From: Gemmata obscuriglobus
GTDB lineage: Bacteria; Planctomycetota; Planctomycetia; Gemmatales; Gemmataceae
Assembly: GCF_008065095.1 (NCBI RefSeq)
Contig: NZ_CP042911.1
Coordinates: 7,590,001 to 7,622,000, forward strand
Direction of reading: 5' to 3'
Length of the DNA stretch: 32,000 nt
Shown: positions 2,818 through 25,727 of the stretch, in pieces
How positions within the stretch are numbered: position 1 is the first letter of the stretch
Layout: each line of letters starts with the position of its first letter
The notes under the pieces: generated by a model
Database searches by the model: none
The model's input: the letters and a program-made list of their open reading frames with translations, nothing else
What the model was told of the DNA's origin: nothing
Position numbers and translations under genes: made by a program

Positions 2818-2892
2818 GACCCGCTCCGAATGAGGTGCGCGCGGGCGCCGCGCCCGGAAACGCTGGAAGGAAGTGCCTTCAGTGTGCGGGAG

Positions 2893-2909
2893 CGGGTTGC
2901 CCGGATGAA
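2893..2909 (-). promoter_or_regulatory. conserved 17-nt motif GGGTTGCCCGGATGAAA (copy 1 of 3)
   Basis: The identical 17-mer occurs at 2893, 11249 and 28026. Each copy lies 46-76 nt upstream (minus sense) of a phage gene start (2817, 11179, 27978). Confidence 0.4.
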
Positions 2910-2986
2910 ATTGCGCGCGGTTCGACGGGTGAGGTGCCAGCGGAACAATACGGACGAACGGGCGCGCGGGCACTCGACCGAAAAGA

Positions 2987-3157
2987 AATGAGGGTCTTGA
3001 GCGCAGGCGACGACGCCGGTACACTTCTGGGCGTGCCGGCTCGGGCGGCGCGGAAGAACGCGTCGGCTCGCACGAGTGGGGCAATTGTTACCGGGCGCAG
3101 CATCGAAGTGCTCTTCCCGTTCGCACGGGCCGTTACCGTGTTATTGTGCGAGCCGTG
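2987..3157 (+). CDS. candidate 56-aa leader ORF (MRVLSAGDDAGTLLGVPARAARKNASARTSGAIVTGRSIEVLFPFARAVTVLLCEP)
   Basis: Conserved in both leaders. All six A/B differences between 3073 and 3127 fall on third codon positions and are synonymous in this frame. An antisense frame sharing the same wobble positions cannot be fully excluded. Confidence 0.35.
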
Positions 3158-3334
3158 AAGGGGCGAGTCGAAGTTTCGCACGGCCCATTACCGTGTTATT
3201 GCGCATATTGTGAAGACGCCCTTCACACGGTAACGATAAGGCCGGTCAGGAGTTCGGTCCCCGGCGCGCGGTGCGCTGGGTGAAATCATCCCGTGTTATT
3301 GCGCGAAGCCTCGCACACTAAACACTGGTTCGGC

Positions 3335-3569
3335 AACCATCGCGTGCAGGAGCGCGCGTGCGGCGCGTGGGCGTGTGGTCCGCGGTGGTAAAGCCCGTAT
3401 GTCGGGCTCCGCGTGGTGCCGGTGGTTGCGGGCGCGGCTCGTCGCCGCGAGGTGCGGTTGGTGCCGGCCTCCGGTGGGCCGGGACACGGTAGCGCGGGTC
3501 GGCGGTGGTGGCTCCGCGGATGCGCGGTACGAGCGCGGGCTCCGCGGAATCGCAACTGCCCGCGCAGAA
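3335..3569 (+). other. non-coding cassette NC-A1 (G/T-rich modular family; head, 1 module, tail type 1)
   Basis: Head CATCGCGTGCAGGAGCGCGCGTGCGG. One GCTCCGCGTGGTGCC...GCGCGGCTCGTCGCCGCGAGGTGCGGT module. The tail carries two TCCGCGGA palindromes. Confidence 0.7.
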
Positions 3570-3660
3570 GCCGAACCCGGCGCTGCACCTGACACCGCCC
3601 GCTAGTTTGTGACGCATTGCTGACTGTATGATGGCGGTGCAGGTGAGCTTTATGTTCGGC
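3570..3660 (+). repeat. attC-like site A1
   Basis: 91 nt, consensus arms, R'' GCCGAAC and R' GTTCGGC. Confidence 0.85.
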
Positions 3661-3670
3661 ACCAGAGGGC

Positions 3671-4012
3671 TTGCGCGTCGTGAAGGTGTATCTGGACGAC
3701 GAGCGTCCCACCCCGCCCGGCTGGGTGACCGTCCGCTGGCCGGACGAGGCCATCCGGCTGCTGGAGACCGGCCGGGTCACGGAGCTGAGCCTCGACCACG
3801 ACCTCGGGGACGACGCTCGGGGCACCGGGTACGCGGTCATCCTGTGGCTCGAGGAGGCGGTGGCCGTCCGCGGGTTCGTTCCGCCGACCATCACCGTCCA
3901 CACGGCCAACGCCTCGGCCCGGCAAAAGATGCTTCTCGGCGTCCGCAGCATCGAGCGCCTTGCCGAGCAAAGGCACGCCGAACCGGGCGGGGCACCGGAC
4001 CCGGCGGTGTAG
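3671..4012 (+). CDS. small REC-fold protein with DHDLG motif (resembles cyclic-phosphate-processing receiver-like family)
   Basis: Track ORF of 113 aa. TTG at 3671; the in-frame GTGs at 3680 and 3686 are more plausible starts. Pattern KVYLDDERPTPPGW...LSLDHDLGDD..GTGYAVILWLEE. The stop lies inside a decayed attC remnant. Confidence 0.6.
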   Translation: MRVVKVYLDDERPTPPGWVTVRWPDEAIRLLETGRVTELSLDHDLGDDARGTGYAVILWLEEAVAVRGFVPPTITVHTANASARQKMLLGVRSIERLAEQRHAEPGGAPDPAV

Positions 4013-4018
4013 TTCGTG
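3977..4018 (+). repeat. collapsed attC remnant
   Basis: GCCGAACCGGGCGGGGCACCGGACCCGGCGGTGTAGTTCGTG. The R'' and L'' arms are recognisable, the loop is lost and the R' has decayed to GTTCGTG. Confidence 0.5.
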
Positions 4019-4072
4019 TCGTGCGGCAGCTCCGCCGATGTGTCGCGGCATCCGTGGTCCCGGCGCAAGGCA

Positions 4073-4164
4073 GCCGAACCCGGCGCTGCACCTGACACCG
4101 CCAGGTGGTTTCCGACGCACCGCTCCCTGGGAGGGGGCGGTGCAGGTGAGCTTGATCGTTCGGC
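4073..4164 (+). repeat. attC-like site A2
   Basis: 92 nt, consensus arms. Confidence 0.85.
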
Positions 4165-4302
4165 CCCGCGCCGAGACCCACGGGGGTGGGCGCGATGTCG
4201 ATAGGGTAGCCAGCCCCCCATCCCAAGTGGCTGGCCCGACCCGCGCCCACCCCCGAGGCGCGAGCGGATCGGTGTAGCTCATCTGCCGGGCTGCATGAGC
4301 GG

Positions 4303-4345
4303 GGCCGAATGTGGAGCTCACCTTCACGGGCAGCCCATGTTCGGC
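4303..4345 (+). repeat. attC debris: inverted copy of an L'-R' arm plus a GTTCGGC core
   Basis: GCCGAATGTGGAGCTCACCT at 4303-4322 is the exact reverse complement of AGGTGAGCTCCACATTCGGC at 4431-4450. GTTCGGC lies at 4339-4345. Confidence 0.5.
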
Positions 4346-4360
4346 GTGGTGGGGCGCGGG

Positions 4361-4450
4361 GCCGAACCCTCCGCTGCACCAGACTCGCGCATGCAGAACT
4401 CGGGGATCGCCCCCTCCAGGGCGCGCGAGCAGGTGAGCTCCACATTCGGC
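4361..4450 (+). repeat. attC-like site A3 (divergent; R' is ATTCGGC)
   Basis: GCCGAACCCTCCGCTGCACCAGACTCGCGC...GCGCGCGAGCAGGTGAGCTCCACATTCGGC. The inner stem is replaced by a compensating TCGCGC/GCGCGA pair. Confidence 0.7.
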
Positions 4451-4771
4451 AACCCGAGGGCGCTGGATCGCGCGTGCGGCGGTGGTGGGCGTGTGGTCCG
4501 CGTGGGTGAACTCCGGTGTCGGGCTCCGCGTGGTGCCCGCCGGTGTGTGGCGCGGCTCATCGCCGCGAGGTCCGGTTGGGCGTGGTCGGCGGTGCATCGG
4601 ATCGGTGGTGCTCCGCGTGGTGCCCGTGGTTGGCGGGCGCGGCTCACCGCCGCGGGTGTCGGTGGTGGGCGGCCACCGGTGTGCCGCGGCACGGTGGTGC
4701 GGGTCGGTGGTGGCTCCGCGGATGCGCGGCGCGGGCGCGGGCTCCGCGGAACCGCGACGGTGGGCGCAGAA
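4451..4771 (+). other. non-coding cassette NC-A2 (head, 2 modules, tail type 1)
   Basis: GCGCGGCTC anchors at 4550 and 4637 (spacing 87). The tail carries two TCCGCGGA palindromes. Confidence 0.7.
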
Positions 4772-4861
4772 GCCGAACCCGGCGCTGCACCTGACACCGC
4801 CGGCTGATTCGGGAGGCATCGCTCATCGGGACGGGCGGTGCAGGTGAGCTGTATGTTCGGC
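4772..4861 (+). repeat. attC-like site A4
   Basis: 90 nt, consensus arms. Confidence 0.85.
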
Positions 4862-4889
4862 CCGGAGGCACGCGGATGGGGGGAGTCGC

Positions 4890-5240
4890 ATGAACCCACT
4901 GGATTCGCTGGCCGACCCTCGCTGGACAGCGGCGCTGACGCGAGTTGCCCACGAGTTGGTAAAATACACGCCGGAGCACTTCAAACTCATTCGCTGCGAG
5001 ATCCGGAGCCGTGACGGTGAGGCCGGGCGGGAGTTGGTCTACACGATCATCTGCCCCGATTTTCCGGACGAGTGGTCGGACACGCCAGGTAAGGATCTCC
5101 ACGCGGCCACTTGCGACCTCGTGCGGTGCTATGAGCGCGGCGGAGCTCCGTTCCCTGGGATGCGGATCGTGATCGAGGTTTTCCCCGACGGCCGGTGGCG
5201 GAACGGCTTTGAACTGTTGCCGGGCGTCACGGACGGCTGA
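4890..5240 (+). CDS. hypothetical cassette protein (tentatively YezG/DUF600-like immunity-protein pattern)
   Basis: Track ORF of 116 aa with an ATG start and its own stop 9 nt before the attC. ...ELVYTIICPDFPDEW...GMRIVIEVFPDGRWRNGFEL. Confidence 0.6.
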   Translation: MNPLDSLADPRWTAALTRVAHELVKYTPEHFKLIRCEIRSRDGEAGRELVYTIICPDFPDEWSDTPGKDLHAATCDLVRCYERGGAPFPGMRIVIEVFPDGRWRNGFELLPGVTDG

Positions 5241-5249
5241 GACATCACA

Positions 5250-5339
5250 GCCGAACCCGGCGCTGCACCGGACCGCTGTATAAGCGGTGATTTCACGACC
5301 GTGTCGCTCACACCGCGGCCGGTGAGCTTGTTGTTCGGC
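5250..5339 (+). repeat. attC-like site A5 (arm variant 2)
   Basis: GCACCGGACCGC...GCGGCCGGTGAGC. Both arms changed together. 90 nt. Confidence 0.8.
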
Positions 5340-5355
5340 AAGAGAGGCGCTCGCA

Positions 5356-5826
5356 GTGTTCGAGTTCCGGGTGACGAAGTACGACCCGGCCCACCGCGAT
5401 AGCCGCGGGGCGTACACGCGGGACGAGTGGATCGCCGTCAGCGACATCGGCCAAGCGTTCGGCGGGGTGGTCCTCACCGAAGCCGAGTATCGGCGGGTCG
5501 AGGATGCCTACGTCGCTGCCGCCATCGCGTTCTTACGGGAGGCAGGCGTCGAGGCGCTGTCCGTGGCCGGGCTGGAGAACCACGCCCGCGTGCCGCTGCC
5601 GTTCGCGGACGGGTCGTCGCTCGGGCTGGCCGAGGCGGGCGGTGTCGTCCGGCGGTTGCTGCGGGCGGAGTTCTGGTGCCGGCTGGAGGGCGCGGGGGCA
5701 TTCGTCCACGTCGGGTACGACTACTACATGTACGTCGGGGTGCCGGTGGCGTGCCCGGGCGCGGTTGCGGACGCCCGGCAACTCGGCCTGTTCCCCGAGC
5801 CGTTCCGGTCGCCGTACCACGAGTAA
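5356..5826 (+). CDS. hypothetical cassette protein
   Basis: Track ORF of 156 aa. GTG start 9 nt after AGAGAGG. Own stop. MFEFRVTKYDPAHRDSRGAYTRDEWIAVSDIG... Confidence 0.6.
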   Translation: MFEFRVTKYDPAHRDSRGAYTRDEWIAVSDIGQAFGGVVLTEAEYRRVEDAYVAAAIAFLREAGVEALSVAGLENHARVPLPFADGSSLGLAEAGGVVRRLLRAEFWCRLEGAGAFVHVGYDYYMYVGVPVACPGAVADARQLGLFPEPFRSPYHE

Positions 5827-5832
5827 AGGCAC

Positions 5833-5923
5833 GCCGAACCCGGCGCTGCACCTGACACCGCCCGCTAGACTGCGACGCTCCGCTCATCCGATGATGGCGG
5901 TGCAGGTGAGCTTTATGTTCGGC
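5833..5923 (+). repeat. attC-like site A6
   Basis: 91 nt, consensus arms. Confidence 0.85.
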
Positions 5924-6381
5924 AACCATCGCGTGCAGGAGCGCGCGTGCGGCGGCGCTGACGGTGTGGTCCGCGTGGGTGAACCTCGCGCGTCGGGCTC
6001 CGCGTGGTGCCGATCGGGTCTGGCGCGGCTCGCCGCCGCGAGCTTGCGGTGGGCGTGGCCGGCGGTATCGTGGGACACGGTAGTTCGGGGCGGTGGTGCT
6101 CCGCGTGGTGCCGTTCGGGGCCGGCGCGGCTCATCGCCGCGAGGTGCGGTTGGGCGTGGCGGGCAGTGCGTCGGGACACGGTGGTGCGAGTCGGTGGCGC
6201 TCCGCGTGGTGCCGATCGGGGCTGGCGCGGCTCGTCGCCGCGAGGTGCGGTGGTGGGTGGCCACCGGTGGGCCGGGACACGGCGCGCGGGGTCGGTGGTG
6301 CTCCGCCCGCCCGCATCGGTGGCACGTGCTCCGCGGAGCCGCGGTGCTCGGCGTGCGACCCGGAACCGCGGTGGTCCGCGA
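5924..6381 (+). other. non-coding cassette NC-A3 (head, 3 modules, tail type 2)
   Basis: GCGCGGCTC anchors at 6023, 6124 and 6225. The spacing is 101 and 101 nt, not a multiple of 3. Confidence 0.75.
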
Positions 6382-6472
6382 GCCGAACCCGGCGCTGCAC
6401 CTGACACCGCCGGCTGATTCGGGACGCACTGCTCATCCGGTGGTGGCGGTGCAGGTGAGCTATTTGTTCGGC
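6382..6472 (+). repeat. attC-like site A7
   Basis: 91 nt, consensus arms. Confidence 0.85.
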
Positions 6473-6806
6473 ACCCAGAAGGGCGCTTGATCGCGCGTGC
6501 GGTGGTGTGCGTGTGGTCCGCGTGGGTGTACCTCGCGCGTCGTGCTCCGCGTGGTGCCGATCGGGTCTGGCGCGGCTCGCCGCCGCGAGGTGCGGTTGGG
6601 CATGGTCCGTGATGTGCGGCGACACGGTGGTGCGGGTCGGTGGTGCTCCGCGTGGTGCCCGCCGGTGGTGGGCGCGGCTCATCGCCGCGGGTGGCGGTGG
6701 TGGGCGGCCACCGGTGTGCCGCGGCACGGCGCGCAGGGGCGGTGGTGGCTCCGCGGATGCGCGGTACGAGCGCGGGCTCCGCGGAACCGCAACGGCCCGC
6801 GCAGAA
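6473..6806 (+). other. non-coding cassette NC-A4 (head, 2 modules, tail type 1)
   Basis: Same family. Module spacing is 102 nt. Confidence 0.7.
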
Positions 6807-6897
6807 GCCGAACCCGGCGCTGCACCTGACACCGCCATCTGATCCGGGACGCATCGCTCATCGTGTGATGGCGGTGCAGGTGAGCTTTATGTTCGGC
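6807..6897 (+). repeat. attC-like site A8
   Basis: 91 nt, consensus arms. Confidence 0.85.
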
Positions 6898-7254
6898 AAC
6901 CATCGCGCGCGTGAGGGCGCGTGTGGTGCTGGGCGTGTGATCCGCGCGGGTGAACCCCGCGTGTGGCGCTCCGCGTGGCGCCCGTGGGTGTGTGTCGCGG
7001 CTCATCGCCGCGAGGTGCGGTTGGTCGTGGCCGGGCGCGGGTGCGGACACGGTGATTGGGGGTCGGTGGTGCTCCGCGTAGTGCCCGTGGGTGGTCGGCG
7101 CGGCTCATCGCCGCGAGGTGCGGTGGTGGGCGGCCCCCGATGTGTGGCGACACGGCGTGCGGAGTCGGTGGTGCTCCGCCCGCCCGCACTGGTGGCGCGG
7201 CCTCCGCGGATGCGCGGCGCTCGGCGTATCGCCCGGAACCGCCGAGGGCATCGA
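6898..7254 (+). other. non-coding cassette NC-A5 (head, 2 modules, tail type 2)
   Basis: Same family. Anchors at 6995 and 7098 (spacing 103 nt). Confidence 0.7.
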
Positions 7255-7345
7255 GCCGAACCCGGCGCTGCACCTGACACCGCCCGCTGATCTGGGACGC
7301 ACCGCTCATCGTGTGATGGCGGTGCAGGTGAGCTTTCTGTTCGGC
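7255..7345 (+). repeat. attC-like site A9
   Basis: 91 nt, consensus arms. Confidence 0.85.
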
Positions 7346-7362
7346 CGCAGAGGGCATCGCGG

Positions 7363-7848
7363 ATGGGTGCGGTGGTGGACGAGGCCCGGAAGCTGCTCCC
7401 CAACCTCTCGCAGGACGACCTGGGGTGGTCCGGCACTGCGTTCGTGCCGTGCTGGGGTGCCGAGTTGGACATCCACCTCACCTGCCACGACGGGGTGATG
7501 GAGGCTCGGCAGGTCGAGACCGTCCGCGCGCTCCTCGGCCACACCGAGGACATCCGGCCGGGGTTCGAGCGGGCGCTGTTCGACTACTACCAAGAGGACG
7601 TGGACGGCACCTACTGTGCCTACGGGCCGGACGGGCCGATCCCCGGGTCCGGCCCGCCGAAACTGACCGAGCCGTCCCAGGTGTGGCCGCTCATCGACGG
7701 GCCGGAGGTGTACATCAAGTGGTTCGCCCGCACCCAGTCGGCGGTCGAGTTCGAGCTGAGCTTCAACTGCGAGTGGGATCGGGAGCACGGTCTCGGGGTC
7801 TTGTACCACGACTTCCGCCCCGTTGAGTTCGGTGGCTGGGACTTGTAG
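7363..7848 (+). CDS. hypothetical cassette protein (tentatively DUF6985-like immunity-type protein)
   Basis: Track ORF of 161 aa. ATG follows AGAGGGC. C-terminal ...FNCEWDREHGLGVLYHDFRPVEFGGWDL. Own stop. Confidence 0.6.
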   Translation: MGAVVDEARKLLPNLSQDDLGWSGTAFVPCWGAELDIHLTCHDGVMEARQVETVRALLGHTEDIRPGFERALFDYYQEDVDGTYCAYGPDGPIPGSGPPKLTEPSQVWPLIDGPEVYIKWFARTQSAVEFELSFNCEWDREHGLGVLYHDFRPVEFGGWDL

Positions 7849-7855
7849 CGCCGAG

Positions 7856-7946
7856 GCCGAACCAGGCGCTGCAGCAGACCCCGCCTCATAGGTTGTTTCT
7901 AACGCTCGGCTCCCTGAGGCGGGGCTGCTGAGCTTAGTCGTTCGGC
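7856..7946 (+). repeat. attC-like site A10 (arm variant 3)
   Basis: GCAGCAGACCCCGCCTCA...TGAGGCGGGGCTGCTGAGC. Fully compensated arm replacement. 91 nt. Confidence 0.8.
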
Positions 7947-8017
7947 CACAGAAGGGCACCCGGCGCGCCGCGCGAGGAGTTGTCGCCTGCGGCGTGGCAC
8001 GGTTCCTTGAGGTTTGA

Positions 8018-8323
8018 ATGAGCATCTACCAGCGATCGTTCGGAATCGTGCCGCTGTTCGCAGGCATCGCCCTGATTGCCTACACGATCAATACGAAGTT
8101 CGTCGCCCCAGACCCCGATGACCCGATGCCCTGGAGCATCTTCATCTTCCTGTGCTTTGTGAGCCTGTCCCTGTCCGGGTGGGGGCTGGCTTGGCTTCAG
8201 GGAGAGCGGTTGAGCAAGCCTGATGACGCCAACGGTGATCGCGTTCCGGATACATCGGCAGGCGGGAGCCGGTTGCCATCCGGCGAGGCCGACGGCCGCG
8301 CGCCGAAGCCGTGGCAGAAGTGA
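8018..8323 (+). CDS. small membrane protein (two hydrophobic helices)
   Basis: Track ORF of 101 aa. FGIVPLFAGIALIAYTI and WSIFIFLCFVSLSLSGWGLAWL. Visibly more A/T-rich than the surrounding DNA. Confidence 0.55.
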   Translation: MSIYQRSFGIVPLFAGIALIAYTINTKFVAPDPDDPMPWSIFIFLCFVSLSLSGWGLAWLQGERLSKPDDANGDRVPDTSAGGSRLPSGEADGRAPKPWQK

Positions 8324-8476
8324 TGAGCATACGCGCCGCGAATCCGCGGATCGTAGGTAGATCATCACGGCACTGGACCGCTGCAGAAGTGCGTGGTTCG
8401 TAGCCCGCGTCGCGGTGTGCGCGGTGGTAATTGGGCCTGTCTCGGGCAGTTCAGCCCGTCCGGTTTGTCAAGGCAC

Positions 8477-8566: not shown

Positions 8567-8582
8567 CACGGAGGGCGCCAGG

Positions 8583-19625: not shown

Positions 19626-19643
19626 AACAGAAGGGCGCACGGA

Positions 19644-20186
19644 ATGGCGGAACCGCAAGCCACCGAGTACCCGACGCGCGAATGGCTTACCGATCGCTTT
19701 GCGGACGTGCAGTTCACGCACCGCGTCCCCGCCGTGAAGTGGGCATACTTCACGCAGTTGATCCGCCCGCTTGCGGGTGAAGCCGCAGGAATCCTATGGT
19801 CGGCGCTGTTCGCCGGGGTTGGGCGGCCGTTCCATCCCCGGCTCGCACGCGGGTGGATGGGGGAGCTGTTCAAGCGAGGCCCCCGCAGTCGGGGCTCTGA
19901 CTTCAAGCACGGGGAGTTACTCGACGCGGGGCTGTGCAGCCGGTTGGGGTGGGCGTCCTCCGCGCCGGTGTTCCTGGTCTTCCAGCCGACGCAGGTGTAC
20001 GTGGCCCCCTGGTCCGTGTGGCTAGATTGCTTCCGCCGCAGTTGGGTGCCGTTCGATACCTCGGTCCTGTGCAGCGACTCGTCATCGAAGGTCGCGGTGT
20101 TCTGGGAGGGCTTTGGCCCGTACTTCGCCGACCGCGGGGCGCGAAGCCTGGCCGAACCCAGCGCTGCACCGGACCCGGCCACGTAG
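19644..20186 (+). CDS. hypothetical cassette protein (180 aa)
   Basis: Track ORF. ATG after CAGAAGGGCGC. The stop lies in the attC loop. Confidence 0.55.
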   Translation: MAEPQATEYPTREWLTDRFADVQFTHRVPAVKWAYFTQLIRPLAGEAAGILWSALFAGVGRPFHPRLARGWMGELFKRGPRSRGSDFKHGELLDAGLCSRLGWASSAPVFLVFQPTQVYVAPWSVWLDCFRRSWVPFDTSVLCSDSSSKVAVFWEGFGPYFADRGARSLAEPSAAPDPAT

Positions 20187-20262
20187 TTCGTTTCCCGGCG
20201 CTCCCCGGTCGGCCGTGTGCGCTACTGGTGTCGCGGCCGGGCCGGTGAGCTTTATGTTCGGC
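20151..20262 (+). repeat. attC-like site B17 (arm variant, long loop)
   Basis: 112 nt. CACCGGACCCGGCC...GGCCGGGCCGGTG. Confidence 0.8.
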
Positions 20263-20619
20263 CACCCCGAGCCGCTCGATCGCGCGTGCGGCGGCGGTGG
20301 GCGTATGGCCCGCGTGGGTGAACCGCGCGTGTGGTGCTCCGCGTGGTGCCGGCGGTGGCGGGCGCGGCTCGCCGCCGCGAGCTTGCGGTGGTCGTGGCCG
20401 GGTGCGGATGGGTGCACGGTGGTGCGGGTCGGTGGTGCTCCGCTGAGACCGATCGGTTGCGGGCGCGGCTCATCGCCGCGTGTGGCGGTGGTGGGTGGCC
20501 CTCGGTGTGCCGGGACACGGCGCGCGGAGTCGGTGGTGCTCCGCCCGGTCGCACCGGTGGCACGGGCTCCGCAGATGCGCGGCGCTCGGCGTGTTGCCCG
20601 GAACCGCGGAGGGGAGCGA
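20263..20619 (+). other. non-coding cassette NC-B9 (2 modules, tail type 2)
   Basis: Anchors at 20362 and 20463 (spacing 101). Confidence 0.7.
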
Positions 20620-20710
20620 GCCGAACCCGGCGCTGCACCTGACACCGCCCGCTCTACTGCGACGCTCCGCTCATCCGGTGATGGCGGTGCAGGTGAGCTT
20701 GTTGTTCGGC
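20620..20710 (+). repeat. attC-like site B18
   Basis: 91 nt, consensus arms. Confidence 0.85.
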
Positions 20711-20725
20711 AGGAAGAGGGCGCGG

Positions 20726-21232
20726 ATGGGGAACGTCCGGCTGAGAACGGTGACCTATTCGGACCTCTCCGCTTTGCGGCACGAAGTGGCGGTCGTCGAT
20801 GGCCCGCAGTTCCAACCTCCCGAGTTCCTCGTCGTTCGCTACTTCGGCTCCTATCGCGATGGGTCCGAGGGCACGCCGGACGCCAAGTACATCCTCGCCG
20901 CGTCCGCAGCCGCCCGGGAGGCGTGGTGGTCACGGTGTACCGTCCTCGACTTCCGTGAGCTCGTGTACCGCTGGGGAGACAACATGGCGTGGGTCACTCA
21001 GATCGGGCGCGATGGGGTGACCAAGCTCCAGTGGCCGCTCGCCATCGTGGTTGGGGACGGTTGTCGTGATGCACTCCGGTCACTGTTGCGGGACGAGTAT
21101 GCGGGTCTGTGCGTGGAGTCGCTGGACGAGGCGTTTACCCTCTGCCGAGTTAAGGCTGAGGAGCATGAGCGACAGCTCAAGCAGTGGCGGCCGCGGGCCG
21201 AACCCGGCGCTGCACCTGACACCGCCGGCTGA
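20726..21232 (+). CDS. hypothetical cassette protein (168 aa), copy 2 of 3
   Basis: Same protein as 16120-16626. Confidence 0.6.
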   Translation: MGNVRLRTVTYSDLSALRHEVAVVDGPQFQPPEFLVVRYFGSYRDGSEGTPDAKYILAASAAAREAWWSRCTVLDFRELVYRWGDNMAWVTQIGRDGVTKLQWPLAIVVGDGCRDALRSLLRDEYAGLCVESLDEAFTLCRVKAEEHERQLKQWRPRAEPGAAPDTAG

Positions 21233-21287
21233 CTTGTGACGCATCGCTCATTCGATGATGGCGGTGCAGGTGAGCTCTTTGTTCGGC
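21197..21287 (+). repeat. attC-like site B19
   Basis: 91 nt, consensus arms. Confidence 0.85.
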
Positions 21288-21303
21288 CACCAGAGGCGTA
21301 CGG

Positions 21304-21771
21304 ATGAATCGCTGGCGTGTGAGGTTGCTCGCGTTCGCTGGCTTGTGCTCGGTCGGCACTCTCATGTACCTGACCCGCGCCGATCGTACGCCCGAGGCCG
21401 ACCCGGAAGGGCTCCATACGGATGACCGCGTCCGACGACTGGCCCCGTACGACATCGCGGCCGCAACGGTGGCAACGTGGTCTCCACTCGACATACCACC
21501 GCTGGGGGTGGTGCCCGCGGGCGCCACCCGTCCACGCCGGGAAGTGTTCGAGGCGCTCGGACTCGACGAACACCGGGTCCGTGACCTCCGTGCGTCCCCT
21601 TCCTTTCGCGTGACGATTCTTCGGTGGCAGGTGTCTCCGTCCTACGACGTGGTGTGTATGACCGCTGACAACAGCCCGGCGTCTAGCGCGGTCCCGCTCG
21701 ATGACCCGGAACGCTCGGTCTACGGCATCCGGTTCGTGAGCCGCTCGGAGGGGGCACACCATATCTGGTAA
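21304..21771 (+). CDS. hypothetical exported protein
   Basis: Track ORF of 155 aa. N-terminal MNRWRVRLLAFAGLCSVGTLMYL. Own stop. Confidence 0.55.
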   Translation: MNRWRVRLLAFAGLCSVGTLMYLTRADRTPEADPEGLHTDDRVRRLAPYDIAAATVATWSPLDIPPLGVVPAGATRPRREVFEALGLDEHRVRDLRASPSFRVTILRWQVSPSYDVVCMTADNSPASSAVPLDDPERSVYGIRFVSRSEGAHHIW

Positions 21772-21788
21772 TCGGCCAGAGCAACGGA

Positions 21789-21879
21789 GCCGAACCCCGC
21801 GCTGCACCGGACCGCGGCGACCGAAGCTGATTCCAGTGTTCATGCTCACACGCCGCGGCCGGTGAGCTCATTGTTCGGC
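21789..21879 (+). repeat. attC-like site B20 (arm variant 2)
   Basis: CACCGGACCGCGGC...GCCGCGGCCGGTG. 91 nt. Confidence 0.8.
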
Positions 21880-22237
21880 CACCATCGCGTGCATGATCGC
21901 GCGGGCGGCGGTGCTGGGCGTGTGGTCCGCATGGGTGAACTCCGCGTGTCGGGCTCCGCATTATGCCGGTGGTCGCGGGCGCGGCTCATCGCCGCGAGCT
22001 TGCGGTGAGCGTGGCCGGCGGTGTCGTGGGACACGGCGTTTCGTGTCGGTGGTGCTCCGCGTGGCGCCCGTGGGTGGTGGGCGCGGCTCATCGCCGCGAG
22101 GTGCGGTTGGGCGTGGGCTCCGGTGTGCCGCGACACGGCGCGTCGGGTCGGTGGTGGCTCCGCTCGGCCGCGTCGGTGGGCGGGCTCCGCGGCGCCGCAG
22201 TGCTCGGCGTGAGGCCCGGAACCGCGGTGGTCAGCGA
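21880..22237 (+). other. non-coding cassette NC-B10 (2 modules)
   Basis: Anchors at 21979 and 22081 (spacing 102). Confidence 0.7.
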
Positions 22238-22328
22238 GCCGAACCCGGCGCTGCACCTGACACCGCCATCGGCATTGTGACCCACTGCTCATCGTATGAT
22301 GGCGGTGCAGGTGAGCTGTTCGTTCGGC
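22238..22328 (+). repeat. attC-like site B21
   Basis: 91 nt, consensus arms. Confidence 0.85.
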
Positions 22329-22344
22329 ACCAGAAGGGCGCTCC

Positions 22345-22881
22345 GTGGATAGGTTCGAGGTCGCGCTCTACCCGCCGCTCGCCGAATGCCCGCCCGAGCG
22401 CCGAAGCTACCGGCAAGCGCACCTGGCGATCAACGGGCAATCGCTGCTTGAGTTGGTTCGGACAGCCGAGGAGCCGTGGGCACGGGCCGAGTACTTGGAG
22501 CGGCTGCCCGAGTTCGAGAACCCGGACGAGTTCCGGTTCGAGCCGGGCGACTACCACTACCTGCCCGCGTCTTGGCTGCTCCTGCCGAGTCTGGAGTTGC
22601 TCGGCCGTCCCCGCGACCCGGGGTTCGCGCTGGAACTGGGCGACCCGCGTCGGTCCAAGGCAACGGTCCTGGGTTGCACCTGCGGGATCGTGCAGTGCTG
22701 GTTCGTGCAGGTGCGGGTCACGGTACGCGCGGAGGTGGTCGAGTGGTCCGAGTTCGGGCAGTTCCACCGCCCGCACTGGCACTACGGTTTGGGTCCGTTC
22801 ACCTTCGACCGCCGGCAGTACGAGGCGCAACTCGTACCCCAAGAGGCCGAACCCGGCGCTGCACCTGACACCGCCCGCTGA
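22345..22881 (+). CDS. hypothetical cassette protein (178 aa)
   Basis: Track ORF. GTG after CAGAAGGGCGC. ...VLGCTCGIVQCWFVQVRV... The stop lies in the attC loop. Confidence 0.55.
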   Translation: MDRFEVALYPPLAECPPERRSYRQAHLAINGQSLLELVRTAEEPWARAEYLERLPEFENPDEFRFEPGDYHYLPASWLLLPSLELLGRPRDPGFALELGDPRRSKATVLGCTCGIVQCWFVQVRVTVRAEVVEWSEFGQFHRPHWHYGLGPFTFDRRQYEAQLVPQEAEPGAAPDTAR

Positions 22882-22937
22882 GTTGTGACGCACCGCTCAT
22901 CGTGTGATGGCGGTGCAGGTGAGCTTCATTGTTCGGC
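22846..22937 (+). repeat. attC-like site B22
   Basis: 92 nt, consensus arms. Confidence 0.85.
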
Positions 22938-22955
22938 AACCAGAGGGCCTCGCGA

Positions 22956-23255
22956 GTGGACGCCTCTTGGCTGGTCCGGCGCGTGACGGTGGCTGAGGCC
23001 GAGGCGGCGCATACGGCCCGCCGGGTGTCAGGCCGCCCCGCACCCGTGCCGTTCGGGGGCCTCAGCGCGCAGTGGCGGGAGCTGGTGGCCGAGATGCGCC
23101 CGGGCGATGAGCTGTGGGAGTACGACAGCCCGGCCGCCGAGTGGGATCGCAACATGGGCAGCTCGGGGTACATCCTGATCCGGCCGGGGGCCGAGGGCCA
23201 CATCCGACTGCCGGACGGCGGTGTCGTGGCCTGCGTCACTTGCCGGATGAACTGA
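22956..23255 (+). CDS. hypothetical cassette protein (about 99 aa)
   Basis: GTG at 22956, in frame with track ORF 22929-23255, whose TTG start lies inside the attC. Own stop. The start is uncertain. Confidence 0.45.
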   Translation: MDASWLVRRVTVAEAEAAHTARRVSGRPAPVPFGGLSAQWRELVAEMRPGDELWEYDSPAAEWDRNMGSSGYILIRPGAEGHIRLPDGGVVACVTCRMN

Positions 23256-23319
23256 GTGCCTGTGCTCCTGCTGCGGCTCCGCCGGCCGGTCGCGGCGGTC
23301 GTGGTCCCAGAGCAAGGCA

Positions 23320-23410
23320 GCCGAACCCGGCGCTGCACCTGACACCGCCATCAGGTTTGTGACGCACCGCTCATCCGATGATAGCGGTGCAGGTGAGCTT
23401 TATGTTCGGC
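23320..23410 (+). repeat. attC-like site B23
   Basis: 91 nt. The 3' arm is AGCGGTGCAGGTGAGC. Confidence 0.85.
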
Positions 23411-23428
23411 ACCAGAGGGACGCATCGG

Positions 23429-23731
23429 ATGAGCCTCGTCGTTCGCCTGTGTGTGTGCAACGACGCTGACAGCGGGGCCGACCGGTTAGTGGAGGTCGTC
23501 CCAAGCGACTTCAGCGTCGCCCTTCGACCCGGCGAGGAGTGCGTCGTTACCGCTGTCGGGTTGGACGCGGTGCCGTCGCTGACGGTTGTCGAGTCGGCCT
23601 ACGGCACGCATGTCATCTGCGAAGGCGGGGCCGCGGTCACCGTCGAGGGGCCTCGTCGATACCAGATGCGCGGTCTGGCAGAGGCGCCGCAAGAAGCCGA
23701 ACCCGGCGCTGCACCTGACACCGCCATGTGA
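23429..23731 (+). CDS. hypothetical cassette protein (100 aa)
   Basis: ATG at 23429 after CAGAGGGAC. MSLVVRLCVCNDADSGADRLVEVVPSDF... The stop lies in the attC loop (tail AEPGAAPDTAM). Confidence 0.5.
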   Translation: MSLVVRLCVCNDADSGADRLVEVVPSDFSVALRPGEECVVTAVGLDAVPSLTVVESAYGTHVICEGGAAVTVEGPRRYQMRGLAEAPQEAEPGAAPDTAM

Positions 23732-23786
23732 TTCGGACCCCGCCGCTCATCCGATGATGGCGGTGCAGGTGAGCTATTTGTTCGGC
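23696..23786 (+). repeat. attC-like site B24
   Basis: 91 nt, consensus arms. Confidence 0.85.
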
Positions 23787-23804
23787 AACCAGAGGGCGCA
23801 GCGG

Positions 23805-24089
23805 ATGGGTAGCAGCGAAGCGAGCCTGCCTCTTTACGATCACTGCTCGCTGTGCGGCGCAGCAATCCGCAGGTGCGATTCGGTGGTGACCATCGAACGG
23901 CACGAAGAGCAGGTGTGTGCAAACGGCGACGTCGAGATCACTCGAGCGGAGGTGCTGGTGTCGCTTTGCATGCCTTGTGGGCAGCGTTACCCGCTGTCGG
24001 TTACACGGGTCGAGTTGGGCGGTCAAGCGTTCATCGGCGCGAAGTGGCCCGAGGCCGAACCCGGCGCTGCACCTGACACCGCCCGCTGA
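23805..24089 (+). CDS. hypothetical Cys-rich cassette protein, copy 2
   Basis: Same protein as 15765-16049 (offset 8040). Confidence 0.55.
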   Translation: MGSSEASLPLYDHCSLCGAAIRRCDSVVTIERHEEQVCANGDVEITRAEVLVSLCMPCGQRYPLSVTRVELGGQAFIGAKWPEAEPGAAPDTAR

Positions 24090-24144
24090 TTCGGAACGCA
24101 TCGCGGCCCGGGACCTCGCGGTGCAGGTGAGCTGTTCGTTCGGC
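24054..24144 (+). repeat. attC-like site B25
   Basis: Copy of B9. Confidence 0.85.
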
Positions 24145-24159
24145 AGGAAGAGGGCGCGG

Positions 24160-24666
24160 ATGGGGAACGTCCGGCTGAGAACGGTGACCTATTCGGACCT
24201 CTCCGCTTTGCGGCACGAAGTGGCGGTCGTCGATGGCCCGCAGTTCCAACCTCCCGAGTTCCTCGTCGTTCGCTACTTCGGCTCCTATCGCGATGGGTCC
24301 GAGGGCACGCCGGACGCCAAGTACATCCTCGCCGCGTCCGCAGCCGCCCGGGAGGCGTGGTGGTCACGGTGTACCGTCCTCGACTTCCGTGAGCTCGTGT
24401 ACCGCTGGGGAGACAACATGGCGTGGGTCACTCAGATCGGGCGCGATGGGGTGACCAAGCTCCAGTGGCCGCTCGCCATCGTGGTTGGGGACGGTTGTCG
24501 TGATGCACTCCGGTCACTGTTGCGGGACGAGTATGCGGGTCTGTGCGTGGAGTCGCTGGACGAGGCGTTTACCCTCTGCCGAGTTAAGGCTGAGGAGCAT
24601 GAGCGACAGCTCAAGCAGTGGCGGCCGCGGGCCGAACCCGGCGCTGCACCTGACACCGCCGGCTGA
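24160..24666 (+). CDS. hypothetical cassette protein (168 aa), copy 3 of 3
   Basis: Same protein as 16120-16626. Confidence 0.6.
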   Translation: MGNVRLRTVTYSDLSALRHEVAVVDGPQFQPPEFLVVRYFGSYRDGSEGTPDAKYILAASAAAREAWWSRCTVLDFRELVYRWGDNMAWVTQIGRDGVTKLQWPLAIVVGDGCRDALRSLLRDEYAGLCVESLDEAFTLCRVKAEEHERQLKQWRPRAEPGAAPDTAG

Positions 24667-24721
24667 CTTGTGACGCATCGCTCATTCGATGATGGCGGTG
24701 CAGGTGAGCTCTTTGTTCGGC
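24631..24721 (+). repeat. attC-like site B26
   Basis: Copy of B10. Confidence 0.85.
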
Positions 24722-24735
24722 AACAGAGGGCGCTG

Positions 24736-25323
24736 ATGGCAGCGGATGAGGTGGTCCCGCACATCGGCATCCGGTCGCTCGCCGGCATGGTGCGGCTGGG
24801 CATGACCCGCGCGGAAGTACAACCCCTGCTCGACCAGGATCGCGACATCCGGGTGGATTTCCGCGGTGATCCACCGGTGGTGGCGTTCGTCGAATCGCCC
24901 AAGCACTGGGGATCGTTCGAGGGCATCGACCTGTTCGAGGCCGGGGCCGACGAGGTCATCGCCGAGATCGCCGAGCGGCTCGGGTTGGCGCCAGAAGTGT
25001 ACCGGCCAGGGCGGCACTCGTACTACTTCCCCGATCTGCGCATGGGCCTGTGGCGGAGTTGCGTGTCGGACGAGGACGGCGACCAGGGCTTCACGTTCGA
25101 CAGCGTGAGCGTCCACGCGCCGGGGTACTACGATCCCACGGGACTGGCGTTCATCCGGCATCAGGGCGGGCTGCCTCCGGAGCAGAGGCACGCCGAACCC
25201 GGCGCTGCACCTGACACCGCCCGCTGTATTGTGACGCACCGCTCATCCGGTCATGGCGGTGCAGGTGAGCTAATTGTTCGGCTACCGGAGGTAGACGCGG
25301 ATGGACGCGGCCCGACTGCATGA
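24736..25323 (+). CDS. hypothetical cassette protein, copy 2 of 16696-17259; reads through the attC into the next cassette
   Basis: Identical up to the GTTCGGC core at 25282. After that the C-terminus differs because the downstream cassette differs. Confidence 0.55.
   Translation: MAADEVVPHIGIRSLAGMVRLGMTRAEVQPLLDQDRDIRVDFRGDPPVVAFVESPKHWGSFEGIDLFEAGADEVIAEIAERLGLAPEVYRPGRHSYYFPDLRMGLWRSCVSDEDGDQGFTFDSVSVHAPGYYDPTGLAFIRHQGGLPPEQRHAEPGAAPDTARCIVTHRSSGHGGAGELIVRLPEVDADGRGPTA
25192..25282 (+). repeat. attC-like site B27
   Basis: Copy of B11. Confidence 0.85.
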
Positions 25324-25672
25324 GTGGGTGGCCACGTACAACTGGGACGACGGTCTCGCCCCGGTGTGGGCCATCGCCGAGTGGCCGCGGACCGAATTCG
25401 CTACCGCCCTGCTGATCTACTGGCGGCTCGGCGGGCCGTGGCTGGAGGGCGACGCGGCTCCCGGCAACGCCCACGCCGTCCGGCTCCAGGCGGTGGTCCG
25501 CGAGCGTCTGCTGGTCGGGTTCTATCTGCGGGGCGCGTCCCGCTACGACCCGGCCGCCGAGATGACCCGCGTGCAACTCCACCAGTTCCGTAAGGCGGGA
25601 GTGCCGGAAGTATTGCTCTTGGCGTGTGGCCCAGAGGCCGAACCCGGCGCTGCACCTGACACCGCCGGCTGA
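25301..25672 (+). CDS. hypothetical cassette protein, resembles the DUF4274 family (NWDDG motif)
   Basis: Track ORF of 123 aa. LHEWVATYNWDDGLAPVWAIAEWPRTEFATALLIYWRLGG. The stop lies in the attC loop. Confidence 0.6.
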   Translation: MDAARLHEWVATYNWDDGLAPVWAIAEWPRTEFATALLIYWRLGGPWLEGDAAPGNAHAVRLQAVVRERLLVGFYLRGASRYDPAAEMTRVQLHQFRKAGVPEVLLLACGPEAEPGAAPDTAG

Positions 25673-25727
25673 TTCGGGACGCGCCGCTCATCCGATGGTG
25701 GCGGTGCAGGTGAGCTGTTCGTTCGGC
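25637..25727 (+). repeat. attC-like site B28 (last site of array B)
   Basis: 91 nt, consensus arms. Confidence 0.85.

What the first reader, a model, noticed from the sequence alone, without database searches (positions are those of the whole stretch)
2881..25727. Two co-oriented integron-type cassette arrays (40 complete attC-like sites) with no integrase in view, embedded in a prophage packaging module
- **The repeat.** I located 12 (array A) plus 28 (array B) copies of a ~90-nt element. It starts with GCCGAAC and ends with its exact complement GTTCGGC, close to the integron R'' RYYYAAC / R' GTTRRRY cores.
- **The fold.** The element folds as a 7-bp R box, a 5 x 5-nt unpaired spacer (CCGGC opposite TTTAT-like), and an L box (GCT/AGC, CACCTG/CAGGTG, CACCGCC/GGCGGTG). 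Two unpaired bases (G and A) sit only on the R''-L'' arm, followed by a variable 30-55-nt loop.
- **Match to known biology.** This is the published architecture of attC sites: R box, unpaired spacer, L box, extrahelical bases and a variable terminal structure.
- **Cassette layout.** Exactly one short plus-strand ORF or one non-coding unit lies between consecutive sites. The ORFs sit 5' of their site, as in gene cassettes.
- **What is unusual.**
  - There are two arrays, each with its own homologous leader.
  - No tyrosine recombinase is visible anywhere in 32 kb.
  - The arrays lie between phage genes (portal, TerL fragments, TerS) rather than next to intI.
  - The host looks planctomycete.
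Basis: partly seen in the sequence, partly recalled or inferred. Interest (0 to 1): 0.85.

Follow-up and report, generated by a model that had tools for sequence, protein, structure and literature searches.

The report
Integron cassette arrays inside a prophage
Two genuine integron gene-cassette arrays (40 cassettes, each array with its own attI-type leader but no integrase) sit in two intergenic gaps of the DNA-packaging module of a Gemmata obscuriglobus prophage. This is a large new example of a recently described situation, phages carrying integron parts, and suggests one way that integrase-less cassette arrays could spread.

Summary
The window holds exactly 12 + 28 complete ~91-nt elements (GCCGAAC…GTTCGGC), all on the + strand and all inside two blocks. 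The hairpin (7-bp R box, 5×5 spacer, L box with two one-sided extra bases, variable loop) is supported by compensatory changes.

In the sister species Gemmata algarum the same leader lies directly downstream of a bona fide integron integrase, so the leaders are attI regions and the repeats are attC sites. Duplicated cassettes are bounded exactly at the GTTCGGC core, the mark of site-specific exchange.

No intI or remnant lies in the window or the flanks I could read, nor at the G. obscuriglobus locus syntenic to the G. algarum integron. The arrays are therefore CALIN-type.

One correction: TerL is not fragmented. This phage lineage naturally encodes the ATPase and nuclease as separate genes. 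Array-less relatives show both arrays occupy intergenic hot-spots, and another related phage also carries an array at site A.

Integrons and CALINs in phages, including a CALIN with its own attI, were published in 2023. This is a new, unusually large member of a known kind. An unexplained family of ORF-less modular cassettes makes up 16 of the 40 cassettes.

The parts
1..2271 (-). Phage portal gene. It is the 5' part of a giant Portal_Mu/Mu-F fusion ORF that runs off the window.
   Evidence: phrog_113 portal, E 3.9e-13. The called gene is 1829 aa in L006. Relatives carry Portal_Mu/Phage_Mu_F.
2299..2820 (-). Small phage ORF (173 aa from the ATG at 2818-2820, coiled-coil). Array-less relatives have it immediately after TerL-C.
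   Evidence: L018 2915-5387 aligns to window 2817-446. Its first ~52 codons are also found next to the leader in G. algarum contig_4.
2881..3334 (+). Leader A, an attI-type region. It has three direct boxes CCGTGTTATTG(C/T)GC, one inverted copy, a possible promoter TTGAGC-N17-TACACT, and the core ...CACTG|GTTCGGC at 3328-3334.
   Evidence: About 93% identical to leader B. 82-85% identical to the G. algarum leader that directly follows intI.
3329..9313 (+). Array A: 12 cassettes, each ending in an attC site. The sites are at 3570, 4073, 4361, 4772, 5250, 5833, 6382, 6807, 7255, 7856, 8477 and 9197-9313.
9314..9945 (+). Terminal unit of array A: a lower-GC lipoprotein-like ORF (9341-9829) followed by a truncated attC 5' half (9893-~9925) that abuts the TerL-C stop codon.
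   Evidence: Sequence. D5 family member at 9893.
9946..10731 (-). TerL-C: a stand-alone terminase nuclease subunit (intact gene).
   Evidence: phrog_27743 over its full length, E 7e-93. It aligns to residues 249-405 of Thermus phage Riverbug TerL. All 82 homologues are 145-285 aa and none is TerL-sized; some carry PF17289. The only PDB hits are TerL nucleases, and they are weak.
10775..11161 (-). Small phage accessory ORF in the variable region between the two TerL genes.
   Evidence: phrog_2293, E 8e-15. Relatives carry other small ORFs at this position.
11227..11688 (+). Leader B, the second attI-type region, with its core GTTCGGC at 11682-11688.
11683..25727 (+). Array B: 28 cassettes with attC sites (12049 ... 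25637-25727). It includes cassette-precise duplications: c24 = c26, and the block c21-23 = c37-39.
25728..26711 (+). About 1 kb of attC-less tail on the array B insert. It has a GTTAAC-palindrome tandem repeat (~25860-25915) and two paralogous mini-ORFs. No counterpart exists in array-less relatives.
   Evidence: Sequence. 43- and 46-aa genes are called in L003. No DNA-level (blastn) match to L018, L013, L015 or L025.
26712..27584 (-). TerL-N: a stand-alone terminase ATPase subunit (intact gene).
   Evidence: Pfam Terminase_6N, 1.2e-8. phrog_7579 over its full length, 6.9e-101. Relatives have a 285-aa gene with the same end.
27367..27978 (-). Probable terminase small subunit.
   Evidence: phrog_2538, E 1.8e-5.
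28921..30557 (-). Phage DnaJ-domain protein and D12-type DNA methyltransferase. The gene order matches Meiothermus phage MMP17.

Best explanation
**What it is.** The region holds two integron cassette arrays of the Gemmata type. Each consists of an attI-type leader followed by attC-bounded cassettes (12 and 28). No integrase lies in cis, so they are CALIN-type arrays that keep their attI.

**Where it sits.** The arrays are carried inside a prophage of Gemmata obscuriglobus. The prophage has a Mu-like portal and a naturally two-gene TerL. Array A fills the short spacer between the TerL nuclease gene and the next head gene. Array B fills the variable accessory-gene slot between the TerL ATPase and nuclease genes.

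**How it most likely works (inferred).**
- Single-stranded attC hairpins, with strand choice set by the two one-sided extra bases, are substrates for an integron integrase supplied in trans.
- That integrase would be of the kind found next to the homologous leader in G. algarum.
- It would excise cassettes at G|TTCGGC and re-insert them at attI.
- The leader may also supply a promoter.

**What is shown directly.**
- The elements are structurally attC sites.
- The leader is homologous to an intI-adjacent attI region.
- Cassette duplications are core-precise.
- The phage genes are intact and colinear with array-less relatives.

**What else is inferred.**
- The arrays travelled with the phage.
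- An integrase acted on them recently, either in a former host or from an undetected gene.
For: - **attC identity.** 40 sites, all on one strand, clustered. 98.4% pairing with 8 compensatory pairs. Canonical ssDNA fold.
- **Link to IntI.** G. algarum L009 carries an IntI (TIGR02249, 429 bits against a cutoff of 265). It is co-oriented with, and followed directly by, the homologous leader and an ORF-less first cassette.
- **Cross-recognition by model R1.** It hits sites downstream of a bona fide IntI in a Gemmataceae MAG (53 and 28 bits). It also hits inside the Shewanella M16-3 region that holds the published CALIN (25.6 bits, E ~3e-4).
- **Core-precise duplications.** c24/c26 share a 463-nt identical stretch. 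c21-23/c37-39 share 1504 nt with 1 SNP. Both end at GTTCGGC on each side, while the preceding spacer bases differ.
- **Phage context.** Portal, TerS, TerL-N, TerL-C, DnaJ and MTase are present. Replication genes lie beyond the window.
- **Array-less relatives.** L018, L013-17 and L025 show TerL-N - small ORFs - TerL-C - small ORF - portal with no attC sites.
- **Array at site A elsewhere.** A related phage (TerL-C 90% aa identity) has an attC site (83 bits) and a different cassette ORF at site A.
- **No integrase.** No intI or remnant in the window or flanks.
Against: - The published IntegronFinder attC model could not be run.
- No integrase partner was found in G. obscuriglobus. None of the 120 best IntI homologues comes from it, and the locus syntenic to the G. 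algarum integron is empty. This leaves the recent core-precise duplications without an identified enzyme.
- The left junctions of the leader/array blocks are not at GTT cores, so the way the blocks entered the phage is unknown.
- About 23 kb of extra DNA may make the prophage unpackageable. 'Phage-borne' may therefore describe history rather than present mobility.
- The leader promoter is only a weak consensus match and was not flagged by the scan.
Confidence: 0.85

Rival explanations
1. The arrays accumulated in a dead, vertically inherited prophage remnant. They never travelled in a virion, so the prophage is just a permissive landing pad for chromosomal integron DNA.
For: - About 23 kb of inserts in a packaging module is a heavy load.
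- No evidence of induction is available.
- The related array-bearing locus (L026-28) could be the same remnant inherited by a related Gemmata.
- Duplications inside array B could have arisen in situ.
Against: - All packaging genes around the arrays are intact ORFs and colinear with array-less relatives.
- Leaders differ by 15-18% between G. obscuriglobus and G. algarum, although their chromosomal flanks are 95.8% identical. This argues against simple vertical descent.
- G. algarum contig_4 carries a leader fused to the first ~52 codons of the phage ORF, next to LpxK/PfkB and with no phage genes. The phage-linked configuration has therefore moved or decayed independently.
Confidence: 0.3
2. A prophage, or pieces of one, inserted into a pre-existing sedentary chromosomal integron. 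The phage genes interrupt one big array rather than the arrays interrupting the phage.
For: - Prophages that excise at attC sites inside Vibrio chromosomal integrons are documented (Qi 2023, PMC9892861).
- L012 shows an unrelated prophage whose integrase abuts an attC array.
Against: - The phage gene order across both arrays is exactly that of array-less relatives.
- The arrays replace a 45-nt spacer and a variable slot.
- Phage genes continue on both sides of the window.
- Each array starts with its own complete leader rather than with an attC junction.
- The array/phage junctions are not at attC cores.
Confidence: 0.05
3. The element is a REP/MITE-like palindromic repeat, or another non-integron tandem structure, that only resembles attC.
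For: - The termini are perfect 7-nt inverted repeats.
- The copies are very similar to each other.
- 40% of the intervals have no ORF.
Against: - All 40 copies are co-oriented and confined to two blocks. None occurs in about 19 kb of adjacent phage DNA or on the other strand.
- The asymmetric bulged bases give a score difference of about 65 bits between orientations.
- ORFs always lie 5' of the site on the same strand.
- The homologous leader is attached to an integron integrase in G. algarum.
- Duplications are bounded at the core.
Confidence: 0.02

Closest known systems
CALIN (cluster of attC sites lacking an integron-integrase; Cury et al. 2016, PMC4889954)
   Same: At least 2 co-oriented attC sites with cassettes of mostly unknown function and no intI within 4 kb. 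There is no recognisable intI pseudogene nearby, as in 95% of CALINs.
   Different: - Each array retains a complete attI-type leader.
- The arrays are large (12 and 28 sites). Per the paper, 83% of CALINs have fewer than 6 sites and 6.6% have more than 10.
- They lie inside a prophage.
[quoted passage not shown] 2023, PMC9892861)
   Same: An attI-headed, integrase-less cassette array embedded among structural and packaging genes of a prophage. The window-derived attC model even hits inside the region that holds that CALIN.
   Different: - M16-3 also encodes its own IntI, whereas the Gemmata prophage region examined has none.
- Here there are two integrase-less arrays, and they are about ten times larger.
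- The host phylum differs.
- The array at site A is shared with a related phage.
Sedentary chromosomal integrons of the 'inverted integron-integrase' group (intI co-oriented with the cassettes; Boucher 2007 as cited in Cury 2016)
   Same: - The G. algarum and Gemmataceae MAG integrons have intI on the same strand as the leader and attC sites.
- The attC sites within an array are highly homogeneous.
- Many cassettes have unknown function.
   Different: In the window the platform lacks the integrase and sits on a phage rather than at the chromosomal locus. That locus is empty in G. obscuriglobus.
Vibrio anguillarum temperate phages carrying fragments of the host superintegron (Qi et al. 2023)
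   Same: Phage genomes that carry integron cassettes and so could move them between hosts.
   Different: Those appear to have been captured by excision at attC sites at the prophage edge, and they include intIA. Here the arrays are internal, in the packaging module, and the junctions are not at attC cores.

Membership tests
attC recombination site | Inverted core sites R'' RYYYAAC and R' GTTRRRY at the two ends | tested here: met
   GCCGAAC / GTTCGGC in 38 of 40 sites; ATTCGGC at R' in the other 2.
attC recombination site | Imperfect hairpin made of R box, unpaired central spacer, L box and a variable terminal structure, conserved in structure more than in sequence | tested here: met
   - 23 pairs, 98.4% paired, 8 with compensatory changes, 0/500 shuffles reach this.
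- ssDNA folds give z = -3.1 to -6.4.
- The loop is 30-56 nt and variable.
- Caveat: the sites are closely related, so covariation comes from a few variant sites.
attC recombination site | Extrahelical bases on one arm only, which set strand choice and orientation | tested here: met
   - G and A sit on the top-strand 5' arm, which is T and C on the bottom-strand 3' arm, 6 bp apart, in all sites.
- Orientation is discriminated by about 65 bits.
- The spacing and the T match attC aadA7 as I recall it. The second base is C rather than G.
attC recombination site | Scored by the curated IntegronFinder/HattCI attC model | not testable with these tools
   - The model is not available here, and Rfam has no attC family (0 hits).
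- Substitute test: the window-derived model hits sites next to a bona fide IntI (L029). It also hits in the published Shewanella M16-3 CALIN region.
attC recombination site | Recombined by an integron integrase at G|TT of R' | tested here: inconclusive
   No assay is possible. Indirect support: duplicated cassettes and a 3-cassette block are identical exactly from the upstream core to their own core.
Gene cassette array | One promoterless ORF (or none) per unit, on the same strand, 5' of its attC | tested here: met
   24 units have a single + strand ORF and 16 are ORF-less. No codon-biased minus-strand ORF lies inside the arrays (gene calls).
Complete integron | intI gene adjacent to the array | tested here: not met
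   tblastn with the G. algarum IntI gives a best E of 1.9 in the window and flanks. No tyrosine recombinase appears among the ORFs scanned.
Complete integron | attI site at the head of the array | tested here: met
   This rests on homology only. Both leaders align at 82-85% with the region between intI and the first cassette in G. algarum, and the boxes and core are invariant. Integrase binding was not tested.
Complete integron | Pc promoter directing cassette transcription | tested here: inconclusive
   TTGAGC-N17-TACACT is conserved in 4 leaders while its spacer varies. It falls below the scan's threshold.
CALIN | At least 2 attC sites, with no intI within 4 kb | tested here: met
   For array B the intI-free distance is at least 6 kb within the window on its downstream side, plus about 7.5 kb of L003 beyond the window. 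Array A has 2.9 kb within the window on its upstream side, plus 2.6 kb of L006.
Phage-borne integron/CALIN (Qi 2023) | Array lies within a phage genome, flanked on both sides by phage genes | tested here: met
   Portal, TerL-C, TerL-N and TerS flank both arrays. The order is colinear with array-less phages.
Phage-borne integron/CALIN (Qi 2023) | The phage is functional and packages the array | not testable with these tools
   Needs induction and virion sequencing.
REP/MITE-type dispersed repeat | Dispersed, solitary copies in both orientations in intergenic regions | tested here: not met
   This holds locally. A genome-wide census was not possible. The genome-contig scan did not even return the window's own two leader copies, so it says nothing about G. 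obscuriglobus.

The most novel reading that the evidence does not exclude
**The reading.** A lineage of temperate Gemmata phages carries an integrase-less integron platform (attI leader, possible promoter, attC cassettes) as a built-in, exchangeable cargo bay in its packaging module.

**Proposed mechanism.**
- The phage borrows the host's chromosomal IntI to swap cassettes with the host integron.
- It then carries whole arrays to new hosts.
- When such prophages decay, they leave attI-headed CALINs in chromosomes.

This would give a concrete origin for the puzzlingly common CALINs in genomes without integrases.

**Support.**
- Site A arrays with different cassettes occur in two related phages.
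- Leaders are far more diverged between species than the core genome.
- The G. algarum chromosomal leader carries a scar of the phage ORF.
- Core-precise cassette duplications occur in a host where no IntI was found.
Probability: 0.3. Interest if true: 0.8.

Novelty: new member of a known kind. Interest (0 to 1): 0.55.

Why it matters
- **Origin of CALINs.** Integron cassette arrays without integrases are common but of unclear origin. How cassettes reach genomes that lack intI is an open question (Cury 2016).
- **What this locus offers.** It is a clean, complete-genome example in which two large attI-headed arrays ride inside an otherwise intact-looking prophage. Array-less and array-bearing relatives are available for comparison, and a cognate integrase has been identified in the sister species.
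- **What becomes testable.** Three experiments follow directly: phage induction, attC × attI assays with the Gemmata IntI, and comparison of strains. Together they address phage-mediated transfer of whole arrays and CALIN formation by prophage decay.
- **Wider reach.** The locus extends phage-associated integron parts, reported in 2023 mostly from Proteobacteria, to Planctomycetota and to a much larger scale.
- **An open question.** It exposes an abundant family of ORF-less cassettes of unknown role.

Tried and rejected
- **First gapped pattern search.** N{40,70} was too short and found nothing. This was fixed by separate searches.
- **Rfam.** No hit at the gathering threshold and only one chance-level hit at the E-value threshold. 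Rfam has no attC family, so this is uninformative.
- **Independent generic attC model.** I tried to build one from published phage integrons (Vibrio Va_90-11-286_p16, Shewanella M16-3). Rule-based site picking gave too few clean, diverse sites, so I dropped it. Instead I tested the window-derived model on those loci.
- **'TerL split by array B'.** Rejected. All 82 TerL-C homologues are 145-285 aa and none is TerL-sized. Relatives without arrays have the same two-gene layout.
- **'G. algarum contig_4 is the same prophage'.** Rejected. Only the leader and about 140 nt of the phage ORF are shared. The neighbours are LpxK/PfkB, and no PHROG hit of known phage function was found.
- **L012 integrase as an IntI.** Rejected; it has no TIGR02249 hit.
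- **ORF-less cassette module as a structured RNA.** RNAalifold finds only an invariant 5-bp hairpin with no covariation. As a protein repeat it fails too: the periods of 101-103 nt are not multiples of 3 and GC1-3 is flat.
- **Collection scans.** Scans of metagenome and viral contigs for the module and the attI core found nothing.
- **Two intI-bearing JGI contigs.** They could not be read because the sample file was too large.
- **Leader scan of genome contigs.** It did not return the window's own two copies. It therefore says nothing about other copies in G. obscuriglobus.

Full report

Yes.
- The heptamer GCCGAAC occurs 93 times on the two strands, against 10 ± 3 in shuffles.
- Pairing GCCGAAC with a downstream GTTCGGC gives 38 elements of 90-117 nt.
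- Allowing ATTCGGC at the 3' end adds two more.
- All 40 are on the + strand.
- The result was 98.4% of cells paired. Eight pairs carry changes on both sides (29 cells) and none carries a one-sided change. No shuffle (0/500) reaches this, and slid controls pair at 28-41%.
- Folded as single-stranded DNA, both strands adopt this hairpin, with z = -3.1 to -6.4.
- A covariance model built from the alignment (R1) finds exactly the 40 sites in the window at 66-106 bits.
- The opposite orientation scores only 24-37 bits. Nothing is found in the flanking phage DNA.

**2. Where does the window come from?**

- Exact-protein look-ups place it in Gemmata obscuriglobus: CP025958.1, about 399.9-431.9 kb, reversed. 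It is also in the draft ABGO01 assembly.

**3. What lies between the sites?**

- Cutting at G|TTCGGC gives 40 units of 286-747 nt.
- Twenty-four have one + strand ORF with normal codon bias (low GC2, high GC3).
- Most of these ORFs have no family assignment. The exceptions are cREC_REC, DUF6985 and DUF4274, with weak hits to DUF4864 and DUF6228.
- No codon-biased minus-strand ORF lies inside the arrays.
- Sixteen units are ORF-less and very GC-rich; see section 8.

**4. Are these integron arrays?**

The two leaders are about 93% identical, from 2880 and 11227 up to the core ...CACTG|GTTCGGC. They contain three direct CCGTGTTATTG(C/T)GC boxes and one inverted copy.

A scan of one genome per species with a two-box pattern hit only Gemmata algarum, twice.
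- In contig_252 (L009) a 355-aa ORF ends 160-220 nt upstream of the homologous leader, on the same strand.
- That ORF scores 429 bits on the NCBIfam integron-integrase model TIGR02249 (cutoff 265, E 1e-128) over the whole profile.
- The leader is followed by GTTCGGC and the start of an ORF-less cassette of the same family as in the window.
- So the leader is the attI region of a Gemmata integron of the known 'inverted integrase' type, with intI co-oriented with the cassettes (Cury 2016).

Three further lines support this.
- In a Gemmataceae MAG with a bona fide IntI (L029), R1 finds sites downstream on the same strand, at 53 and 28 bits.
- R1 also hits inside the CALIN-bearing region of Shewanella prophage M16-3 described by Qi et al. 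2023 (25.6 bits, E about 3e-4). A marginal hit lies in its integron array, in the correct orientation.
- Duplicated cassettes are identical exactly from the upstream core to their own core.
  - c24 = c26 over 463 nt (17234-17696 against 18211-18673).
  - The block c21-c23 = c37-c39 over 1504 nt with one SNP.
  - In both cases the spacer bases just before the core differ.
  - Homologous recombination would need to resolve inside an 8-nt identity. Site-specific exchange at the core is the natural reading.

**5. Is there an integrase?**

None where I could look.
- tblastn with the G. algarum IntI gives nothing better than E = 1.9. This covers the window, about 7.5 kb beyond its right end and 2.6 kb beyond its left end.
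- The G. algarum integron is chromosomal, next to ArgG, a JAB protein and peptidase S9.
- The syntenic G. obscuriglobus locus (L022) is 95.8% identical in the flanks. It has no intI, leader or attC.
- None of the 120 best homologues of the G. algarum IntI (63-98% identity) sits on a ~9-Mb contig. G. obscuriglobus ArgG is in the same database at 98% identity.
- So an intact close orthologue is absent. A distant-type IntI or a pseudogene elsewhere cannot be excluded.
- By definition the two blocks are CALINs (Cury 2016), although they keep their attI.

**6. The phage context, and a correction.**

On the minus strand the window encodes, in order:
- a D12 methyltransferase, a DnaJ protein and a probable TerS;
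- a TerL ATPase (26712-27584; phrog_7579 over its full length, 7e-101);
- a small accessory ORF;
- a nuclease-domain protein (9946-10731; phrog_27743 over its full length, 7e-93);
- a 173-aa ORF;
- a Mu-type portal fusion.

The two TerL pieces align to consecutive halves of Thermus phage Riverbug TerL, with nothing missing. This is not damage done by array B.
- All 82 database homologues of the nuclease piece are 145-285 aa, and none is TerL-sized.
- Array-less relatives have TerL-N (285 aa) - 0 to 3 small ORFs - TerL-C (about 240 aa) - small ORFs - portal (L018, L013-17, L025).

Alignment with L018 (83% nt identity) defines the insertion sites.
- Leader A plus array A (2881-9945) replaces most of a 45-nt TerL-C/next-gene spacer.
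- The array B block (about 11162-26711) sits in the variable slot between the two TerL genes.
- In one relative that slot holds an Acb2/Tad1-like gene.

**7. Are the arrays phage cargo?**

- Contigs L026-28 carry a TerL-C 90% identical in protein. Immediately downstream of TerL-C they have a different cassette ORF preceded by an attC of this family (83 bits).
- The same TerL-C protein on MAG contig L025 has no array between the TerL genes.
- So the site A array is shared by related phages with different cassette content. Array B appears to be a later addition.
- G. algarum contig_4 (L010) carries a leader fused to about 140 nt of the phage spacer and ORF start. Its neighbours are LpxK and PfkB, and no phage genes were detected. 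This looks like a scar of a phage-linked array in a chromosomal setting.
- Leaders differ by 15-18% between the two species although the chromosomal flanks differ by about 4%. This argues against simple vertical descent.
- These points favour arrays travelling with the phage, but they do not prove it. Virion packaging of an extra ~23 kb is untested.

**8. ORF-less cassettes.**

- Sixteen of the 40 cassettes have GC 0.75-0.78 and flat GC1-3.
- They share a modular plan: a conserved head, one to three ~101-nt modules, and a tail.
- There are 25 module copies, all on the + strand.
- Conservation lies in contiguous blocks separated by variable spacers: GCTCCGCGTGGTGCC; GGCGCGGCTCnnCGCCGCGAGGTGCGG; GGGACACGG.
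- The only consensus structure is an invariant GCGGC-5nt-GCCGC hairpin, with no covariation.
- No Rfam family matches.
- The motif is absent from IMG/VR and JGI metagenome contigs.
- The first cassette of arrays A and B, and of the G. algarum intI-linked array, is of this type.
- Their function is unknown. Candidates are protein-binding or transcription-control elements.

**9. Comparison with what is known, and verdict.**

Each element of the finding has a precedent.
- attC architecture and CALINs (Cury 2016).
- Co-oriented integrases (same paper).
- Integrons and CALINs in phages and prophages. These include a Shewanella prophage with a CALIN that has its own attI, among tail, scaffold and terminase genes (Qi et al. 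2023).
- I found no paper in the held library that describes an integron or attC sites in Gemmata.

The finding is therefore a real and correctly interpreted integron structure, and a new, unusually large member of a known kind. Three aspects make it interesting:
- two attI-headed arrays with 40 cassettes in the packaging module of a phage lineage;
- a host in which no integrase was found, despite recent core-precise cassette exchange;
- a dominant family of ORF-less cassettes.

Noticed in passing
window cassettes starting at 3329, 4445, 5918, 6467, 6892, 11683, 12133, 13885, 14865, 15314, 17237, 18214, 18668, 20257, 21874 (plus the atypical 4159-4444): One family of ORF-less, very GC-rich cassettes makes up 16 of the 40 units. 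Each is built from a head, 1-3 tandem ~101-nt modules (25 copies, all on the + strand) and a tail. Conservation lies in contiguous blocks, with no covariation, no Rfam hit and no match in IMG/VR or JGI metagenomes. This type is the first cassette in arrays A and B and in the G. algarum intI-linked array.
   Followed up: partly
window 26712-27584 (-) and 9946-10731 (-); relatives L013-L018, L025: This phage lineage naturally encodes the large terminase as two separate genes, an ATPase of ~285 aa and a nuclease of ~240 aa. Up to three small accessory ORFs lie between them. All 82 nuclease homologues found are 145-285 aa, none TerL-sized.
   Followed up: yes
L025 642-1052 (+): In a close relative, the slot between the two TerL genes (where array B sits in the window) holds a 136-aa gene with a precomputed Pfam hit to Acb2_Tad1_hairpin, an anti-defence sponge family. 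This suggests the slot is an accessory or anti-defence hot-spot.
   Followed up: no
window 25728-26711: About 1 kb of attC-less tail lies between the last attC of array B and the TerL-N stop. It has lower GC, a tandem palindromic CGCGCGTTAACCGCGCGGTTAA repeat (~25860-25915) and two paralogous mini-ORFs (43 and 46 aa) with similar upstream sequences. It has no DNA-level (blastn) match in the array-less relatives compared.
   Followed up: no
window ~2996-3024 and ~11345-11373; L009, L010: TTGAGC-N17-TACACT is conserved in all four leaders while its spacer varies. It may be a cassette-directed promoter about 300 nt upstream of the attI core. It falls below the threshold of the consensus scan.
   Followed up: partly
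L010 (G. algarum contig_4) 1-640 (-): A second G. algarum leader copy has no adjacent intI. It is fused to ~140 nt homologous to the spacer and first ~52 codons of the window's phage ORF (2738-2880). Its neighbours are chromosomal genes (LpxK, PfkB, a PP-loop ATPase) and no phage genes were detected. It may be the scar of a decayed array-bearing prophage.
   Followed up: partly
window 9197-9313 and 9341-9945: The last complete attC of array A is long (117 nt) and has a 4-nt duplication in its core (GTTCGTTCGGC). It is followed by a lower-GC lipoprotein-like ORF and only the 5' half of an attC, which abuts the TerL-C stop codon.
   Followed up: no
window 4304-4345 (-) and 3977-4027 (+): Two short attC-like remnants: a 42-nt inverted mini-site inside the atypical ORF-less cassette 3 (20 bits) and a degenerate 5'-arm copy just upstream of the attC at 4073 (17 bits).
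   Followed up: no
L012 (IMGVR_UViG_3300047171_000024) 8951-12528: An unrelated predicted prophage (TerL phrog_9, portal phrog_12) ends with a non-IntI tyrosine integrase. At least three attC sites of the Gemmata family follow immediately on the opposite strand. This may be a prophage integrated beside or inside a cassette array.
   Followed up: partly
L021 8208-11534 against L022 3009-3849: The G. algarum chromosomal integron (intI plus leader) and a 227-aa ORF are absent from the otherwise 95.8%-identical syntenic region of G. obscuriglobus. The integron is therefore a presence/absence polymorphism between sister species.
   Followed up: yes
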